Positions 30,688-35,050 are shown, counted from the stretch's first letter. The stretch: DNA of 64,000 nucleotides from a virus (IMGVR_UViG_3300027808_002177:15243-79242); one strand, 5' to 3'. Numbers and translations are program-made. The notes: a model not told the origin generated them from the letters alone.

Positions 30688-31632
30688 TTACTGTCCTTGT
30701 TGGACTGTAATCTTAGCGCAACCACCTGCTGTGGCACAATTGAATTGTATGCTGTAGAAGTGCTGTGTTGAGCCAGATTGTGTTAAACTTAAATCAGTTG
30801 GATTTCCAGTTAGGCCTACACTTGCCACATGGCCTGCAGAACCTTGCTGTAAAATATCTACATTCTTGTTGCTGCCGCTTAGTGTTACTTCTGCATAATG
30901 GCTACCGCTATCTTTTTGTGATAATAATAAGCTATTGTTGTTGTCATTTATTTTTACAAACGCACCTTTGATTCCGCCCGTGCTTTGTTGCGTAATTGAC
31001 ACTGTATTGGCATTGCCAATTATTCCAAGATCTGTGTAGTTTGAGGTAGTAGCATCGCCTGTTTGTAAAATGTTTACAGTATTGTTATTACCATTGCTGG
31101 CGTACTCTGCATGGTTATCTTTAGTCCCGGTCTGCTCAATTGTAGTGATATTATTTGATCCAATTTGTTCAATGTATATCTGCGCATTACGCTGGTCAAT
31201 GGGCCTACTATTATATGTTTGTAGTCGAGTTGTATTATAGCTGTTTGGCACAAAGACAGATGGTGATCCAGCACTGCAACATGCAGCAGGTGGACTTGAG
31301 AATGAATAATATGCACCAGAAGAGGGAATATATGCAGTGCCGTCGCTGTTCTTTGTGTATAAAAACAAGTAATCTGGATCCGGTCTTGCCCAACTAATAA
31401 TTGTAGCTGTTTGTCCTGTGCATGCCTGCCCTGAGCTACATGTAGCAGTCCATCCAACTGGATTATATGCTATCAGCGCATCAAATTCGGTTGGGTTATT
31501 ACCACGATAAACAAATATGTAGTCGCTGCCCTGGCTGCTTACATTCATTGCCTGTGACACTGTAGCTGCGGTGCTCAATGATGTAACAAACATCAGTATC
31601 CAACAAAATAAAAGTTTCATGTTTTGAACCAA
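30688..31632 (-). CDS. secreted curlin-repeat protein (CsgA/CsgB-like curli subunit)
   Basis: Signal peptide, Cys-containing N-domain, then repeated Q-x-G-x-x-N-x-(A/T)-x3-Q units (IEQIGSNNITTIEQTG, NILQTGDA, DILQQGSAG, LSLTQSGST). Confidence 0.8.
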   Translation of the reverse strand: MVQNMKLLFCWILMFVTSLSTAATVSQAMNVSSQGSDYIFVYRGNNPTEFDALIAYNPVGWTATCSSGQACTGQTATIISWARPDPDYLFLYTKNSDGTAYIPSSGAYYSFSSPPAACCSAGSPSVFVPNSYNTTRLQTYNSRPIDQRNAQIYIEQIGSNNITTIEQTGTKDNHAEYASNGNNNTVNILQTGDATTSNYTDLGIIGNANTVSITQQSTGGIKGAFVKINDNNNSLLLSQKDSGSHYAEVTLSGSNKNVDILQQGSAGHVASVGLTGNPTDLSLTQSGSTQHFYSIQFNCATAGGCAKITVQQGQ

Positions 31633-31780
31633 TTGTACTTTTTCAATTCACATAGCAGGTTGTCCGACGATGTATTGTTCCATACTGCGGCCAGACTGAC
31701 AAATCTTTGCCAATCACGTGCATAGTTATCATTGCCTTGCTGCCAGGCCTGATACATGTGTAACAGATGTAGCTCGCCCA

Positions 31781-32887
31781 TTATCTCTTTGCTACTCCAA
31801 CGTTTTGAAGTATACTAATCACATTCCCGCCAACACTGCCGTCACCAATGATAGTTGAAGCTGCAACATCGTTGTGGCTAATTGCAACCGTGGTGTTTGA
31901 TGCATAGCCTTGTGTTTTAACTTCGGCATAGTGCGTATTTTCAGTATTACGGAATGCTATACCTTTGCCACGATTTTGTATTGCTGATTCAGACGGATTA
32001 TCCCAACTGACACACACGCTAGTTGCTGAATTGCAACCAGCTTTTACTGCCATATCTTCTAATATTAAAATTCGTGCGTGTTCAAGATCTTCTCGCTTGT
32101 CTGATACTGCCTGTGCTAATCGACGGGCAGCCTCTGTTTCTAATGCTTCCAATTCTTCGTCACGTTTAGTCTTACCCGACACGTCACGAAGTACTCGGCC
32201 AACTTCTTTGGGCTGTGCAAGTATTAAATTATTGTTTAGTTTACTTTCAACAGTCTGCATAATAAATGCAGTAGATGGCGCTACAGAATTGCTTATAACG
32301 TATGTGGCCTGGAACGGATGTGACAATAGTACATCGCCTGCCCCAGTTGAAACAAGTATCTCGCCAACTCTACAACGATTCTCCTCAAGCTCATATGTCT
32401 TAACATCAATTTGATCTTTGCAACTTGGTAGCAGCACCACAAGGCTACGACCAGTCTCGTCAACTGTCATTGTAAAGTCTGTGCCGCGAACTGCAATATT
32501 TGCAGTGGGCGTCTTAATGGAAACTTGTTGTGGATTTTGTTTGGCAATTTGTCCCGACGCATAACGAACAGTGCCCATGCCTACTCGCATTACCAACTTG
32601 CCCGCATCACCCTTCTTTGGATCGTACACAAAGTCGTCGATTACCAAGCGACTATTTTCTGTTATCTTAACCTTGGTATCATCTTTGAATACAATATCGC
32701 TAACACACCCGCCAGTGCGATATGTGTCCATGCTTTCAACTGCGGCACCTTTAAGTCCAGATAATTTAGATGAGCCGCGCTCGATTTCACAGCTGGTTCC
32801 TTTATTTTCTGACACTGCACCAATAGCAGGCCCTGCATGAAGTGGACTGTGACTAATAAGCAACAATGCAATTAGCAGTAGCTTCAT
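31781..32887 (-). CDS. secreted protein with FecR-like beta-sandwich domain and C-terminal curlin-like segment
   Basis: Signal peptide MKLLLIALLLISHSPLHA. TPTANIAVRGTDFTMTV is FecR-like. The C-terminal HYAEVKTQGYASNTTVAISHN echoes the curlin repeats (HYAE also occurs in 30688..31632). Confidence 0.5.
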   Translation of the reverse strand: MKLLLIALLLISHSPLHAGPAIGAVSENKGTSCEIERGSSKLSGLKGAAVESMDTYRTGGCVSDIVFKDDTKVKITENSRLVIDDFVYDPKKGDAGKLVMRVGMGTVRYASGQIAKQNPQQVSIKTPTANIAVRGTDFTMTVDETGRSLVVLLPSCKDQIDVKTYELEENRCRVGEILVSTGAGDVLLSHPFQATYVISNSVAPSTAFIMQTVESKLNNNLILAQPKEVGRVLRDVSGKTKRDEELEALETEAARRLAQAVSDKREDLEHARILILEDMAVKAGCNSATSVCVSWDNPSESAIQNRGKGIAFRNTENTHYAEVKTQGYASNTTVAISHNDVAASTIIGDGSVGGNVISILQNVGVAKR

Positions 32888-32892
32888 AATAC

Positions 32893-33636: not shown

Positions 33637-33741
33637 AATATAAGTTCGCGAAATGTTAAATTTCACGCTCCTCTGGGCTATGCCCTTAGACTCTGAATCG
33701 CCAGAGTATATAACATACAAGCAAGATCTATGCACAAGATC

Positions 33742-34575
33742 TTACTTTATTGATTCTTTTGCGAATCCCCAATGCCCTTTACGAGCGCCTTCTTTAATAG
33801 TATCTACAACAGCGGCTTGAATAGCAACAGACACTGCTTTATTGATACTTTCATTTACACTGGTTCCGACTTCTGCTTCGACTGCCTCGGTTCCTACGTT
33901 GACAAACTTTAATACTCCCAGTTTGTCCATATAGCTTAATACTGTTTTTGTAATTGTAACCGACGTTAACACTTCGCCGGTACTTACACTCACTGTTCTA
34001 AGAACTATTGTAACAGTATCACTTTGGTATTGAGTTGATGCGCCAATGCCCAGTAATCGAAATCCATTGCCGCCTGTTAGTGTATTTGAATCATAACCAA
34101 TTATACCGCCTTCCATAATGATTCCAGCGAAAATCATTGGTGGTAACAACTTTGCATCTTTACCCTGATACTGCTCACGCATCTGGCGAATCATCTGACG
34201 CTCTTTAATTAAATTTTCTAAGCCAACACGTTCAACAACAATGAACCATTTTTTATCACTGCCAACGTCCTGCAACGACTTAATTAAAAAGTTCTCTGCT
34301 CCTTGTGTCACAGCCGAACTTAAACTTGCAATGTTAGTTAAACTTTTACGTTGCCCTGTTAGGTCTTTGAAGCCATATACTGCAACAGTTAATGGACCAC
34401 CAGCTGGTCCTGCTAAGTCGCCGCTTTGTTGTTTTAGATATATGTTCTGTTCTACCACAGGAGCATCAAATTGTTCATTGGTTAGTTTTCCTTTAATAAT
34501 AGATGTTGACGCACACCCGCTTACTAAAAGCACTGCTAATAAGGATACTATAAGTTTGATCATATTAAAATGCAA
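33742..34575 (-). CDS. csgG: curli production assembly/transport lipoprotein CsgG
   Basis: Lipobox LLVSGC. IMEGGIIGYDSNTLTGGNGFRLLGIGASTQYQSDTVTIVLRTVSVSTGEVLTSVTITKTVLSYMDKLGVLKF aligns nearly residue-for-residue with the E. coli CsgG core. Confidence 0.9.
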   Translation of the reverse strand: MHFNMIKLIVSLLAVLLVSGCASTSIIKGKLTNEQFDAPVVEQNIYLKQQSGDLAGPAGGPLTVAVYGFKDLTGQRKSLTNIASLSSAVTQGAENFLIKSLQDVGSDKKWFIVVERVGLENLIKERQMIRQMREQYQGKDAKLLPPMIFAGIIMEGGIIGYDSNTLTGGNGFRLLGIGASTQYQSDTVTIVLRTVSVSTGEVLTSVTITKTVLSYMDKLGVLKFVNVGTEAVEAEVGTSVNESINKAVSVAIQAAVVDTIKEGARKGHWGFAKESIK

Positions 34576-35050
34576 ACGTACCGCTTGGTACCTTCATAAT
34601 AGTAACCTGAGAACTATCGGTTAGATTCTGGATAGTGATTACAATCATACCAGTGTCTGCACCTACGCCAAGTTTCCAAGTAATGTTATTGCCAGCAATA
34701 TCAGGAATCTCTCCGCACACTGCGCCAGCAGTTGCACTGGTGCAAGCTGGAGTACCAGCTGTTCCAAATAAGCTATCAGTTAATTGTTTTGCTAATTGCG
34801 AGTATATGCGGGCTTGTAGATTGGCAACGAACTGTGCCTGTGGATTTGTAGCAGCATCACGCTCGGCCTGCGCCTTCAATGAATCTGCTACATTTTTGTT
34901 ATTTTGCTTGCCTTGGTCTTCTAACTGTTTAATAGTTAATATGTGAGTACTGTAACCAATTCCGGAAAACGACGGGCTATTGAATCCATGTTGCAACTCG
35001 GCAGCATAGCCACAAATTGGGATTAATAGTAGTAATAGAAGTTTTTTCAT
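34565..35050 (-). CDS. csgF: curli assembly protein CsgF-like
   Basis: Signal peptide. Mature N-terminus AELQHGFNSPSFSGIGYSTH resembles CsgF GTMTFQFRNPNFGG. Lies immediately upstream of csgG and overlaps it by 11 nt. Confidence 0.7.
   Translation of the reverse strand: MKKLLLLLLIPICGYAAELQHGFNSPSFSGIGYSTHILTIKQLEDQGKQNNKNVADSLKAQAERDAATNPQAQFVANLQARIYSQLAKQLTDSLFGTAGTPACTSATAGAVCGEIPDIAGNNITWKLGVGADTGMIVITIQNLTDSSQVTIMKVPSGTFAF

What the first reader, a model, noticed from the sequence alone, without database searches (positions are those of the whole stretch)
30688..35050. Complete-looking curli (functional amyloid) secretion/assembly operon embedded in a phage genome
Five consecutive minus-strand genes encode CsgF-like and CsgG proteins, two secreted curlin-repeat proteins and a secreted FecR-like protein with a curlin-like C-terminal segment. 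The CsgG lipoprotein matches the E. coli core almost residue for residue. The curlin subunits carry multiple Q-x-G-x-x-N-x-A/T-x3-Q units. Curli systems are known as chromosomal csgBAC/csgDEFG loci of Proteobacteria and Bacteroidetes, and I am not aware of a described phage-borne curli secretion system. No CsgE, CsgC or CsgD homolog is adjacent. A LuxR-type regulator lies 13 kb away at 47811..48500. Flanking genes are phage-like: an amidoligase-like acidic protein, unknown large proteins, a GH19 virion lysin and tail fibres.
Basis: partly seen in the sequence, partly recalled or inferred. Interest (0 to 1): 0.9.

Follow-up and report, generated by a model that had tools for sequence, protein, structure and literature searches.

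The report
Phage-borne curli secretion module, already described
The five genes are a real curli-type (type VIII) secretion and fibre module in a very large phage genome, but three papers since 2020 describe the same module in marine phages, so this is a new member of a known kind.

Summary
Window 30688-35050 (minus strand) encodes, in order, a CsgF-like protein, a CsgG lipoprotein, a curlin-repeat protein, a secreted FecR-domain protein and a second curlin-repeat protein. All five have N-terminal export signals.

One is a 54-aa coupled ORF (31617-31781). The other is a CHASE2-adenylate-cyclase gene (25148-27199), which belongs to the same conserved module.

The novelty claim fails. The order csgF-csgG-curlin-FecR-curlin-cyclase is annotated in Pelagibacter phage HTVC008M and Methylophilales phage Melnitz. 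It is described in PMC7029224, PMC9004378 and PMC9599517, and it recurs in more than 70 IMG/VR viral contigs.

Three things are new here:
- The carrier is a different, jumbo-phage lineage; a syntenic relative is a 294,843-bp contig.
- The "FecR" protein is not an anti-sigma factor. It is a secreted FecR-fold protein with a curlin-like tail, of the kind that pairs with CHASE2 sensors in bacteria.
- At the second curlin position, relatives carry lectin-like domains (PA14 or discoidin).

The most likely function is secretion of adhesive amyloid fibres from the infected cell under cAMP-linked control. This is inferred, not shown. Novelty: new member of a known kind. Interest: about 0.35.

The parts
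34565..35050 (-). CsgF-like secreted protein (161 aa). It has a signal peptide MKKLLLLLLIPICGYA. The mature N-terminus AELQHGFNSPSFSGIG carries the conserved F-x-N-P-x-F-x-G peptide, which in E. coli CsgF inserts into the CsgG barrel.
   Evidence: Pfam CsgF 1.7e-5, 25.4 bits against cut-off 25.8. PHROG 35372 at 7.5e-28. In 31 orthologs F23, P26, F28 and G32 are invariant. The ortholog profile has PDB 6l7a CsgF as top hit at E=0.05.
33742..34563 (-). CsgG outer-membrane lipoprotein (273 aa from the ATG; the mechanical ORF starts at the TTG at 34575). It has the lipobox LLVSG|C. The residue aligned to the E. coli constriction residue F56 is Leu.
   Evidence: PF03783 at 3.1e-48. PDB CsgG at 2.2e-42. 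39% identity overall and 42% in the core. Constriction-loop alignment. NCBIfam CsgG equivalog 164 bits against cut-off 505.
32893..33636 (-). Curlin-repeat protein 1 (247 aa from the ATG at 33636). It has a signal peptide ending ALAQ. About nine ~22-residue units each form two 7-residue strands preceded by G-x-x-N turns. It is the likely major fibre subunit.
31781..32887 (-). Secreted FecR-domain protein (368 aa). Layout: signal peptide, FecR beta-sandwich (~23-200), helical linker (~227-283), then a curlin-like C-terminal beta segment (~308-361). Six Cys are invariant. It has no cytoplasmic anti-sigma domain.
31617..31781 (-). 54-aa ORF (MGELHLLHMYQAWQQGNDNY...). Its ATG overlaps the FecR stop codon (TAATG) and its stop overlaps the curlin-2 start (ATGA). 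It has no signal peptide and its function is unknown.
   Evidence: Sequence and translation. A homologous 57-aa ORF sits at the same place in L114. It is absent from L089.
30688..31620 (-). Curlin-repeat protein 2 (310 aa from the ATG). Layout: signal peptide, a ~120-aa Cys/aromatic-rich N-terminal domain of unknown family, then six to seven ~23-residue curlin repeats (N-x-V-x-I-x-Q-x-G).
   Evidence: Curlin_rpt 5.3e-7 for the whole protein, and 7.8e-10 with 4 stretches for the C-terminal half. PDB 8c50 at 1.5e-7. Motif spacing. The N-domain has only 24 cluster representatives among 1.84 billion proteins, several of them fused to curlin repeats or to CBM_4_9.
25148..27199 (-). Membrane CHASE2 sensor fused to a class III nucleotide cyclase (683 aa). 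Layout: TM 8-37, periplasmic CHASE2, TM cluster ~316-400, cytoplasmic cyclase 436-610 with Lys485 (adenylate-type). It is the sixth conserved member of the phage module. Here it is separated from curlin 2 by about 3.5 kb of inserted DNA that includes an amidoligase-like gene.
   Evidence: CHASE2 1.3e-43 and Guanylate_cyc 5.6e-19. PHROG 35576 at 2.5e-227. 40-41% identical to the cyclases that follow the curli genes in Melnitz and HTVC008M. Found downstream of the module in most of the related loci. Hydropathy and motifs.

Best explanation
This is a phage-encoded, self-contained type VIII (curli-type) secretion module. It is the same module already described in SAR11 and OM43 phages, here carried by an unrelated jumbo-phage lineage.

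Proposed mechanism during infection:
1. All five proteins are exported by Sec.
2. The CsgG lipoprotein forms the outer-membrane channel.
3. CsgF docks into the channel through its N-terminal F-x-N-P-x-F-x-G peptide.
4. Curlin protein 1 is secreted unfolded and polymerises outside the cell into a two-sheet beta-solenoid amyloid fibre.
5. Curlin protein 2, which has a non-curlin head and a curlin-repeat tail, co-assembles as a nucleator or as an adhesive decoration.
6. The secreted FecR-fold protein and the CHASE2-adenylate cyclase form a periplasm-sensing pair that couples envelope or fibre status to cAMP.

The likely pay-off is a changed surface on the infected cell: aggregation or adhesion that brings new hosts close ('sibling capture'), and/or a barrier against superinfection.

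Shown here: homology, export signals, repeat architecture, predicted folds and conserved synteny. Inferred: fibre formation, the FecR-CHASE2 interaction, cAMP as the product, and the ecological role.
For: Component identity:
- CsgG. CsgF.
- Curlin 2. Curlin 1.
- All five proteins start with signal-peptide-like N-termini, and CsgG has a lipobox.

Conservation:
- The order csgF-csgG-curlin-FecR-curlin-cyclase recurs in Melnitz and HTVC008M, in more than 70 IMG/VR loci and in metagenome contigs of 93-295 kb. This argues for selection on the whole set.
- 5,737 CsgG relatives (E<=1e-20) and 6,660 FecR relatives (E<=1e-5) were found in the protein collection; the 120 best hits listed for each are 58-92% identical.

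Literature:
- The module was detected at all 65 GOV2 stations and in metatranscriptomes (PMC9599517).

Adhesive reading:
- The second-curlin position in relatives carries PA14 or F5/8-type-C (discoidin) domains N-terminal to curlin repeats.

Regulatory pair:
- Periplasmic FecR-domain proteins are encoded beside CHASE2 sensors in the Burkholderia BiofilmReg operon (PMC5192318).
- SMc02177 (FecR-domain) lies next to smc02178, which lies near the CHASE2 adenylate cyclase gene cyaD1 (SMc02176) in S. meliloti (PMC5498481).
- The cyclase has the expected topology: TM, CHASE2, TM cluster, cyclase.
Against: - No experiment anywhere shows fibres made by a phage module.
- Melnitz-infected cultures showed no clumping in cytograms or TEM (PMC9004378).
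- CsgF scores just below Pfam's cut-off, and its profile hit to E. coli CsgF is only E=0.05.
- The CsgG constriction residues of E. coli (Y51/N55/F56) are L/S/L here.
- The folded, Cys-containing head domain of curlin 2 may not pass a ~1-nm channel.
- No CsgE, CsgC or recognisable CsgB-type nucleator is present.
- The host is unknown.
Confidence: 0.6

Rival explanations
1. Pore-only reading. The phage uses CsgG-CsgF as an outer-membrane channel, either a gated secretin or pinholin-like device that times lysis or an import route for nutrients or cofactors. The curlin-repeat proteins would not form fibres.
For: - This was proposed for Melnitz and for pelagimyophages (PMC9004378; PMC7029224).
- The periplasmic gate CsgE is absent.
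- A GH19 wall hydrolase lies three genes upstream of csgF, and this is conserved in the lineage.
- No clumping was seen in Melnitz cultures.
Against: - Two signal-peptide-bearing curlin-repeat genes are kept in the same positions in more than 70 loci spanning 22-95% identity, with invariant N/Q/G ladders. That is hard to explain if they are unused.
- The Melnitz record itself annotates two curlin-repeat proteins. PMC9599517 found CsgA/B-type genes in the myophages. The 'incomplete operon' premise is therefore outdated.
- CsgG sits in the outer membrane and does not depolarise the inner membrane.
Confidence: 0.2
2. Signalling-centred reading. The conserved core is the FecR-CHASE2-cyclase sensor, which sets host cAMP during infection. 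The T8SS parts export a ligand or decoy rather than building a structural fibre.
For: - FecR and the cyclase co-occur with the module across clades.
- FecR/CHASE2 pairs exist independently in bacteria.
- The FecR tail is curlin-like.
Against: - The cyclase is not detected next to the module in some loci that extend well beyond it (L010, L014), and FecR and the cyclase are not always present in published modules.
- In this lineage the cyclase is separated from the module by inserted genes.
- Repeat number and beta-solenoid length in curlin 1 are those of a polymerising subunit.
Confidence: 0.1
3. Not phage-borne. The window would be a bacterial chromosome or plasmid segment in which an ordinary host csg locus sits next to a prophage.
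For: - Contig ends and read coverage could not be checked.
- Several metabolic-looking genes are present: a UDP-glucose dehydrogenase fusion, radical SAM enzymes and a nitroreductase.
Against: - Over 64 kb, all ORFs of 150 aa or more between 7345 and 63905 are on one strand, apart from two overlapping + strand ORFs.
- There are no tRNA genes, no Rfam hits and no housekeeping-family hits.
- Phage tail-fibre, endolysin and endonuclease families flank the module on both sides.
- The flanks are syntenic with IMG/VR viral contigs and with a 294,843-bp contig of the same architecture.
- The only species-representative bacterial genome found with a close CsgG (Polaromonas MAG, 49% identity) has a different context, with no FecR or cyclase.
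Confidence: 0.03

Closest known systems
Curli/T8SS module of pelagimyophages and Methylophilales phage Melnitz (HTVC008M gp014-019; Melnitz gp99-104; PMC7029224, PMC9004378)
   Same: It has the same six genes in the same order: csgF, csgG, curlin-repeat, FecR-domain, curlin-repeat, CHASE2 adenylate/guanylate cyclase. CsgE, CsgC and CsgD are absent in both. Protein identities are 35-46%.
   Different: - The carriers differ. Those phages are T4-like Kyanoviridae of ~141-147 kb infecting SAR11 or OM43. The window has no nucleotide match to any GenBank phage, and its closest relatives are contigs of up to 295 kb.
- About 3.5 kb of inserted DNA, including an amidoligase-like gene, separates curlin 2 from the cyclase here.
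- A 54-aa ORF follows FecR here.
- The FecR C-terminus is a different, more curlin-like sequence.
T8SS region of HTVC023P-type pelagiphage podoviruses (PMC9599517)
   Same: It has CsgF, CsgG, a CsgA/B-type repeat protein and FecR, often followed by a second repeat protein and an adenylate cyclase. The published interpretation is a complete fibre-secreting system brought to a host that lacks one.
   Different: Those modules are always preceded by one or two histidine kinases. The two genes upstream of csgF here (35114-36637 and 36621-37436) have no Pfam, PHROG or NCBIfam hit. The carrier there is a small podovirus, whereas here it is an apparent jumbo phage.
Escherichia coli/Salmonella csgBAC-csgDEFG curli system
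   Same: It shares the CsgG lipoprotein channel (39-42% identity), the CsgF N-terminal plug motif, and Q/N/G-ladder curlin repeats that fold into a two-sheet beta-solenoid.
   Different: - A single co-directional cluster instead of two divergent operons.
- No CsgE, CsgC or CsgD equivalog.
- Constriction residues Y51/N55/F56 are replaced by L/S/L.
- The subunits are about twice as long as CsgA.
- It adds a FecR-fold protein and a CHASE2 cyclase.
Bacterial FecR-domain / CHASE2-sensor gene pairs (Burkholderia BiofilmReg operon, PMC5192318; S. meliloti cyaD1-smc02177 neighbourhood, PMC5498481)
   Same: A signal-peptide-bearing periplasmic FecR-domain protein is encoded beside (Burkholderia) or close to (S. 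meliloti) a membrane sensor whose periplasmic part is CHASE2. In S. meliloti the output is an adenylate cyclase. In Burkholderia the operon controls biofilm formation.
   Different: Those pairs are not linked to T8SS genes. The Burkholderia protein carries LysM and the sensor is a histidine kinase. A physical FecR-CHASE2 interaction has not been shown in those papers either.

Membership tests
Type VIII (curli) secretion system | CsgG-family outer-membrane lipoprotein channel | tested here: met
   PF03783 at 3.1e-48. PDB CsgG at 2.2e-42 over residues 7-267. Lipobox LLVSG|C.
Type VIII (curli) secretion system | CsgF accessory protein with an N-terminal CsgG-binding peptide | tested here: inconclusive
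   Pfam CsgF 25.4 bits against gathering score 25.8. The ortholog profile has E. coli CsgF 6l7a as top PDB hit, but only at E=0.05. The F-x-N-P-x-F-x-G motif is invariant in 31 orthologs. PHROG 35372 at 7.5e-28. The syntenic Melnitz and HTVC008M genes are annotated CsgF.
Type VIII (curli) secretion system | Sec-exported subunits built of curlin repeats (PF07012) | tested here: met
Type VIII (curli) secretion system | CsgE, CsgC and CsgD accessory or regulatory genes (gammaproteobacterial type) | tested here: not met
   No such Pfam or NCBIfam hits in the module or in its immediate neighbours. The LuxR-type gene at 47811-48500 reaches only 56.9 bits against the 250-bit cut-off of the CsgD equivalog model. 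According to PMC9599517 these genes are lacking in most non-gammaproteobacterial systems.
Type VIII (curli) secretion system | Extracellular amyloid fibre formation (Congo red/ThT binding, SDS-insoluble) | not testable with these tools
   This needs expression and biochemistry. Only the sequence ladder and the predicted beta-solenoid are available.
Phage T8SS module (pelagiphage type, PMC9599517 / PMC7029224) | Co-linear csgF-csgG-curlin-FecR-(curlin)-(adenylate cyclase) | tested here: met
   The order is the same in the window, in Melnitz and HTVC008M and in more than 70 viral loci. In this lineage the cyclase is displaced by inserted genes.
Phage T8SS module (pelagiphage type, PMC9599517 / PMC7029224) | Histidine kinase gene(s) immediately upstream (podovirus version) | tested here: not met
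   The upstream ORFs 35114-36637 and 36621-37436 have no Pfam, PHROG or NCBIfam hit.
Phage T8SS module (pelagiphage type, PMC9599517 / PMC7029224) | Carried by a SAR11/OM43-infecting T4-like myovirus or an HTVC023P-type podovirus | tested here: not met
   No megablast match to 50,697 phage records. The module proteins are only 35-46% identical to those phages. Syntenic relatives reach 294,843 bp. The UV-endonuclease gene is closest to ~260-kb Erwinia and Dickeya jumbo phages. The host is unknown.
FecR anti-sigma regulators (FecIRA-type cell-surface signalling) | N-terminal cytoplasmic anti-sigma domain plus a transmembrane helix | tested here: not met
   The protein starts with a cleavable-looking signal peptide, and the FecR beta-sandwich begins at about residue 23. 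No internal TM segment was found.
FecR anti-sigma regulators (FecIRA-type cell-surface signalling) | Periplasmic FecR-fold domain | tested here: met
FecR anti-sigma regulators (FecIRA-type cell-surface signalling) | Partner ECF sigma factor and TonB-dependent transducer nearby | not tested
   None appeared among the roughly 40 window ORFs scanned, but small ORFs were not scanned exhaustively.

The most novel reading that the evidence does not exclude
The phage module would be a signal-regulated adhesive-fibre machine, not just 'curli genes'. The secreted FecR-fold protein would use its curlin-like C-terminal hairpins to bind or cap curlin subunits in the periplasm, replacing CsgE or CsgC. Its FecR domain would report to the CHASE2 domain of the cyclase, so that cAMP output tracks subunit flux. 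The second curlin protein would be a swappable lectin-headed adhesin (PA14, discoidin or, here, an uncharacterised Cys-rich domain) displayed on the fibre, so that different phage lineages could stick infected cells to different targets. The three papers on phage curli modules do not propose this, and none of PA14, discoidin, lectin, CHASE2 or signal peptide occurs in the text of PMC9599517.
Probability: 0.2. Interest if true: 0.6.

Novelty: new member of a known kind. Interest (0 to 1): 0.35.

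Why it matters
Phage-encoded curli modules are abundant. They make up about 0.1% of assembled ocean viral proteins (PMC9599517), and thousands of CsgG and FecR relatives are in the protein collection searched here. Yet nobody has shown what they do.

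This window shows that the module is not confined to SAR11 and OM43 phages. It also sits in a jumbo-phage lineage of about 295 kb. That broadens the question from a pelagiphage curiosity to a widely shared phage accessory system.

The refinements made here give concrete, testable handles on mechanism:
- 'FecR' is a secreted FecR-fold partner of a CHASE2 cyclase, not an iron regulator.
- The second curlin position carries lectin-like heads.
- The FecR protein has a curlin-like tail.

As a discovery in its own right it is modest, because the existence, gene order and distribution of the module are already published.

Tried and rejected
- Megablast of 30000-36000 against GenBank phages: no match.
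- Exact look-up of the window's CsgG: not on record.
- Single-sequence search of CsgF against the PDB: no CsgF hit. Only the ortholog profile reached E. coli CsgF, and weakly.
- Curlin 1 against PDB sequences: only spurious hits.
- The genome-contig scan gave one bacterial locus only. It is a Polaromonas MAG with csgF-csgG next to histidine kinases and no FecR or cyclase, so it does not identify the source of the module.
- The FecR protein search returned only phage-type orthologs in its top 120, so the bacterial FecR/CHASE2 pairing rests on two papers.
- Sigma-70 promoter and terminator scan of 25000-39500: 41 promoter-like sites against 29.2±4.7 expected and 20 terminator-like sites against 13.3±3.0. 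None is convincing as an operon boundary.
- Rfam over the whole window: nothing. There is no counterpart of the Melnitz tmRNA or glutamine riboswitch.
- A scan for a shared N-terminal M-x-x-R-E-L-L motif found one strict match. It was dropped as a lead.
- I considered whether the LuxR-type gene is a CsgD counterpart. It is syntenic in one related 21-kb contig, but that shows only backbone synteny.

Full report
**1. What is in the sequence**

Profile searches identify four of them directly:
- CsgG: PF03783, 3.1e-48.
- CsgF: PF10614, 1.7e-5. The score is 25.4 bits, a hair below the 25.8-bit gathering score.
- FecR domain: PF04773, 8.3e-11.
- Curlin_rpt in the last ORF: PF07012, 5.3e-7.

The ORF between CsgG and FecR had no Pfam hit.

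The mechanical ORF starts are too long for three genes. The likely starts are ATG codons that give classical export signals:
- CsgG: MIKLIVSLLAVLLVSG|C, a lipobox, starting at 34563.
- Curlin 1: MFERIKLHRYIAVCAVAFYGSMALAQ, starting at 33636.
- Curlin 2: MKLLFCWILMFVTSLSTAAT, starting at 31620.

CsgF and the FecR-domain protein also begin with signal peptides.

**2. Tests of the weaker components**

*CsgG.* It aligns to the E. coli CsgG structures (6lqh, 3x2r, 4uv3) at about 2e-42. Identity is 39% overall and 42% in the core. That is a clear homolog, but not 'almost residue for residue'. The E. coli constriction residues Y51/N55/F56 align to L/S/L. Across phage homologs the F56 position is F in most marine clades. 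It is L in this clade, in Melnitz and HTVC008M, and in a Polaromonas homolog.

*CsgF.* The single sequence finds no PDB relative. A profile of 31 syntenic orthologs has E. coli CsgF (6l7a) as its best hit, at E=0.05. The alignment covers the N-terminal peptide F-x-N-P-x-F-x-G, whose F23, P26, F28 and G32 are invariant.

*Curlin 2.* Its C-terminal half gives Curlin_rpt at 7.8e-10 with four stretches. It matches the solved Pontibacter CsgA (8c50) at 1.5e-7. Six to seven N-x-V-x-I-x-Q-x-G units lie about 23 residues apart.

*Curlin 1.* It is sub-threshold by itself (E=0.021). Three further lines support it:
- 19 of 29 orthologs from the same genomic position hit Curlin_rpt.
- The family has an invariant N/Q/G ladder with a period of about 22 residues.
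- An AlphaFold model built from 72 sequences is confident (pLDDT 83.7, pTM 0.78). It consists of 7-residue strands, each preceded by a G-x-x-N turn.

**3.

*A small coupled ORF.* A 54-aa ORF (31617-31781) lies between FecR and curlin 2. Its start overlaps the FecR stop codon and its stop overlaps the curlin-2 start. A homolog occupies the same place in a related contig (L114) but not in another (L089).

*The cyclase.* ORF 25148-27199 is a CHASE2 sensor fused to a class III cyclase (CHASE2 1.3e-43, Guanylate_cyc 5.6e-19). It is 40-41% identical to the cyclase genes that immediately follow the curli genes in Melnitz and HTVC008M. It follows the module in most related loci. Hydropathy gives the order TM, periplasmic CHASE2, TM cluster, cytoplasmic cyclase. 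The K485 and Thr pair is the adenylate-cyclase signature of class IIIb enzymes; that reading is from my own knowledge of the family.

In this lineage, genes inserted between curlin 2 and the cyclase include an acidic protein whose ortholog hits Amidoligase_2.

**4. It is phage DNA, from a large phage**

- All ORFs of 150 aa or more between 7345 and 63905 are on one strand, except two + strand ORFs (40398-40970 and 53888-54400) that overlap minus-strand ones.
- There are no tRNAs, no Rfam families and no housekeeping families among about 40 ORFs scanned.
- Phage families occur on both sides of the module: GH19 endolysin-type, tail fibre, phage endonuclease, subtilase and others.
- The UV-endonuclease gene is 46% identical to those of ~260-kb Erwinia and Dickeya jumbo phages. 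The subtilase gene is closest to cyanomyophage genes.
- The region has no nucleotide match in GenBank phages, and its CsgG is not on record as an exact sequence.
- Close relatives (CsgG 88-95% identical) are on metagenome contigs with the same flanking genes: GH19, a small ORF, a ~271-300-aa ORF, a ~500-aa ORF, then csgF.
- One relative is a 294,843-bp JGI contig with the same synteny through to the cyclase.
- The only species-representative bacterial genome with a close CsgG (Polaromonas MAG, 49% identity) has a different context.

The 'host locus beside a prophage' rival is therefore unlikely.

**5. It is already known**

A tblastn search with CsgG finds Pelagibacter phage HTVC008M and four Methylophilales phage Melnitz records. 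The hits are annotated as curli production components. Their records show the identical order: CsgF, CsgG, curlin-repeat, FecR-domain, curlin-repeat, cyclase. PHROGs v4 already holds families for the CsgG, CsgF and FecR components.

Three papers deal with this module:
- Zaragoza-Solas et al. 2020 (PMC7029224) reported the curli cluster in pelagimyophages as the first phage T8SS and proposed 'sibling capture'.
- Buchholz et al. 2022 (PMC9004378) modelled Melnitz CsgGF and proposed a role in lysis timing.
- The 2022 mSystems paper PMC9599517 described the full module, including FecR, a histidine kinase and an adenylate cyclase, in HTVC023P-type podoviruses and in the myoviruses. It found the module at all 65 GOV2 stations and in metatranscriptomes, and argued for transfer between virus families.

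A GenBank protein from an 'uncultured Caudovirales phage' is even named 'Curlin associated'.

In IMG/VR, 86 stretches encode relatives of this CsgG. More than 70 of the 80 loci fetched show the conserved order, on contigs of up to 344 kb.

**6. What this window adds**

*(a) The carrier.* It is a jumbo-phage lineage unrelated to the published pelagiphage carriers. The podovirus-type upstream histidine kinase is absent.

*(b) The 'FecR' protein is not an anti-sigma regulator.*
- It lacks the cytoplasmic anti-sigma domain and the TM helix.
- It has six invariant cysteines and a C-terminal ~50-residue curlin-like beta segment, which is nearly invariant in its clade.
- Other clades have different tails, but they too end in a curlin-like phi-x-phi-x-Q strand.
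- Periplasmic FecR-domain proteins are encoded beside CHASE2 sensors in the Burkholderia BiofilmReg operon (PMC5192318).
- In S. meliloti, the FecR-domain gene smc02177 lies next to smc02178, which lies near the CHASE2 adenylate cyclase gene cyaD1 (SMc02176) (PMC5498481).
- FecR plus cyclase is therefore best read as a pre-existing sensory pair grafted onto the T8SS, not as an iron regulator.

*(c) The second curlin position is modular.* Relatives carry PA14 or F5/8-type-C (discoidin) domains ahead of the curlin repeats; HTVC008M gp018 is PA14 plus Curlin_rpt. The window's own head domain is rare, with 24 cluster representatives among 1.84 billion proteins. It is found mostly on curlin-repeat proteins and once with a CBM_4_9 domain. 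PMC9599517 does not mention PA14, discoidin, lectin, CHASE2 or signal peptides.

**7. Mechanism**

The best-supported reading is a self-contained T8SS:
1. Sec export of all five proteins.
2. A CsgG channel capped by CsgF.
3. Secretion and extracellular polymerisation of curlin 1.
4. Curlin 2 acting as a nucleator or as a lectin-headed decoration.
5. FecR and the CHASE2 cyclase acting as a periplasmic sensor with cAMP output.

The benefit to the phage would be aggregation or adhesion of infected cells, or exclusion of competing phages.

Homology, export signals, repeat architecture, folds and synteny are shown. Fibre formation, the FecR-CHASE2 contact, cAMP as the product and the ecological role are inferred.

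The evidence against is real:
- No experiment has shown fibres from any phage module.
- Melnitz cultures showed no clumping.
- The CsgF evidence is borderline.
- The constriction residues are changed.
- Folded, Cys-containing head domains may not pass the CsgG channel.

The main rival is pore-only use, for lysis timing or import. It is weakened because two exported curlin-repeat genes are conserved across all clades.

**8. Verdict**

Novelty is 'new member of a known kind'. Interest is about 0.35. The score is kept above trivial because the function of this abundant module is still untested, and because the jumbo-phage carrier, the FecR/CHASE2 re-reading and the lectin-headed curlins give testable refinements.

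Noticed in passing
window 31617-31781 (-): A 54-aa ORF with no signal peptide (MGELHLLHMYQAWQQGNDNYARDWQRFVSLAAVWNNTSSDNLLCELKKYNWFKT) is wedged between FecR and curlin 2. Its start overlaps the FecR stop (TAATG) and its stop overlaps the curlin-2 start (ATGA). A 57-aa homolog is at the same place in L114. It is absent from L089.
   Followed up: partly
window 47811-48500 (-): A LuxR/GerE-type regulator has the CsgD equivalog model as its best NCBIfam hit (2.1e-15, 56.9 bits against cut-off 250). On the related 21-kb contig Ga0222712_10002500, the homolog lies about 13.7 kb from the csgF/G genes on the same strand, as in the window. Whether it regulates the module is unknown.
   Followed up: partly
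L002 10543-11868; L004 13284-14432; L005, L013, L024, L084 (second-curlin position): The protein after FecR in related phages is a fusion of a PA14 or F5/8-type-C (discoidin) domain with C-terminal curlin repeats. Sizes range from 155 to 712 aa across loci.
   Followed up: yes
window 37722-38933 (-) and 27871-28656 (-): Two proteins begin with nearly the same N-terminus (MRLRELLSE... and MLIRELLEA...). The first is a 403-aa GH19-domain protein with a Gly/Ala-rich hydrophobic stretch in the middle, conserved three genes upstream of csgF in the lineage. In a 295-kb relative it also carries LysM. This may be a shared targeting or processing signal.
   Followed up: partly
window 33719-33747 (-): An 11-bp-stem hairpin starts in the csgG stop codon, ahead of the 105-nt gap before curlin 1. 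The tail is not T-rich, so it is not a clear terminator. It could set the ratio of pore to subunit expression.
   Followed up: no
window 7345-16369 (-), 58018-60408 (-), 40125-42429 (-): The window is rich in auxiliary-type genes: a 783-aa UDP-glucose-dehydrogenase fusion, two radical-SAM proteins, a nitroreductase, an S8 subtilase related to cyanomyophage genes, a probable Band_7-type protein (the same-sized 264-aa gene at this position in relatives hits Band_7; the window ORF itself hits only PHROG 200 'lipoprotein') and a putative peptidase (same-position relatives hit Peptidase_C1). Close relatives also carry TctABC and DctP transporter genes beside the module.
   Followed up: no
protein-collection relatives of the window CsgG (P0005, P0026, P0042 and others): Many CsgG homologs at 72-78% identity are 350-440 aa long and carry C-terminal SH3_3 or SH3_4 domains (PF08239, PF06347), unlike the window's 273-aa CsgG. 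A peptidoglycan- or ligand-binding extension on a phage CsgG has not been followed up.
   Followed up: no
window 16441-20922 (-): A 1493-aa ORF has no Pfam or PHROG hit. Its only similarity is a 52-residue patch (52% identity) shared with ~250-kb Vibrio jumbo phages.
   Followed up: no
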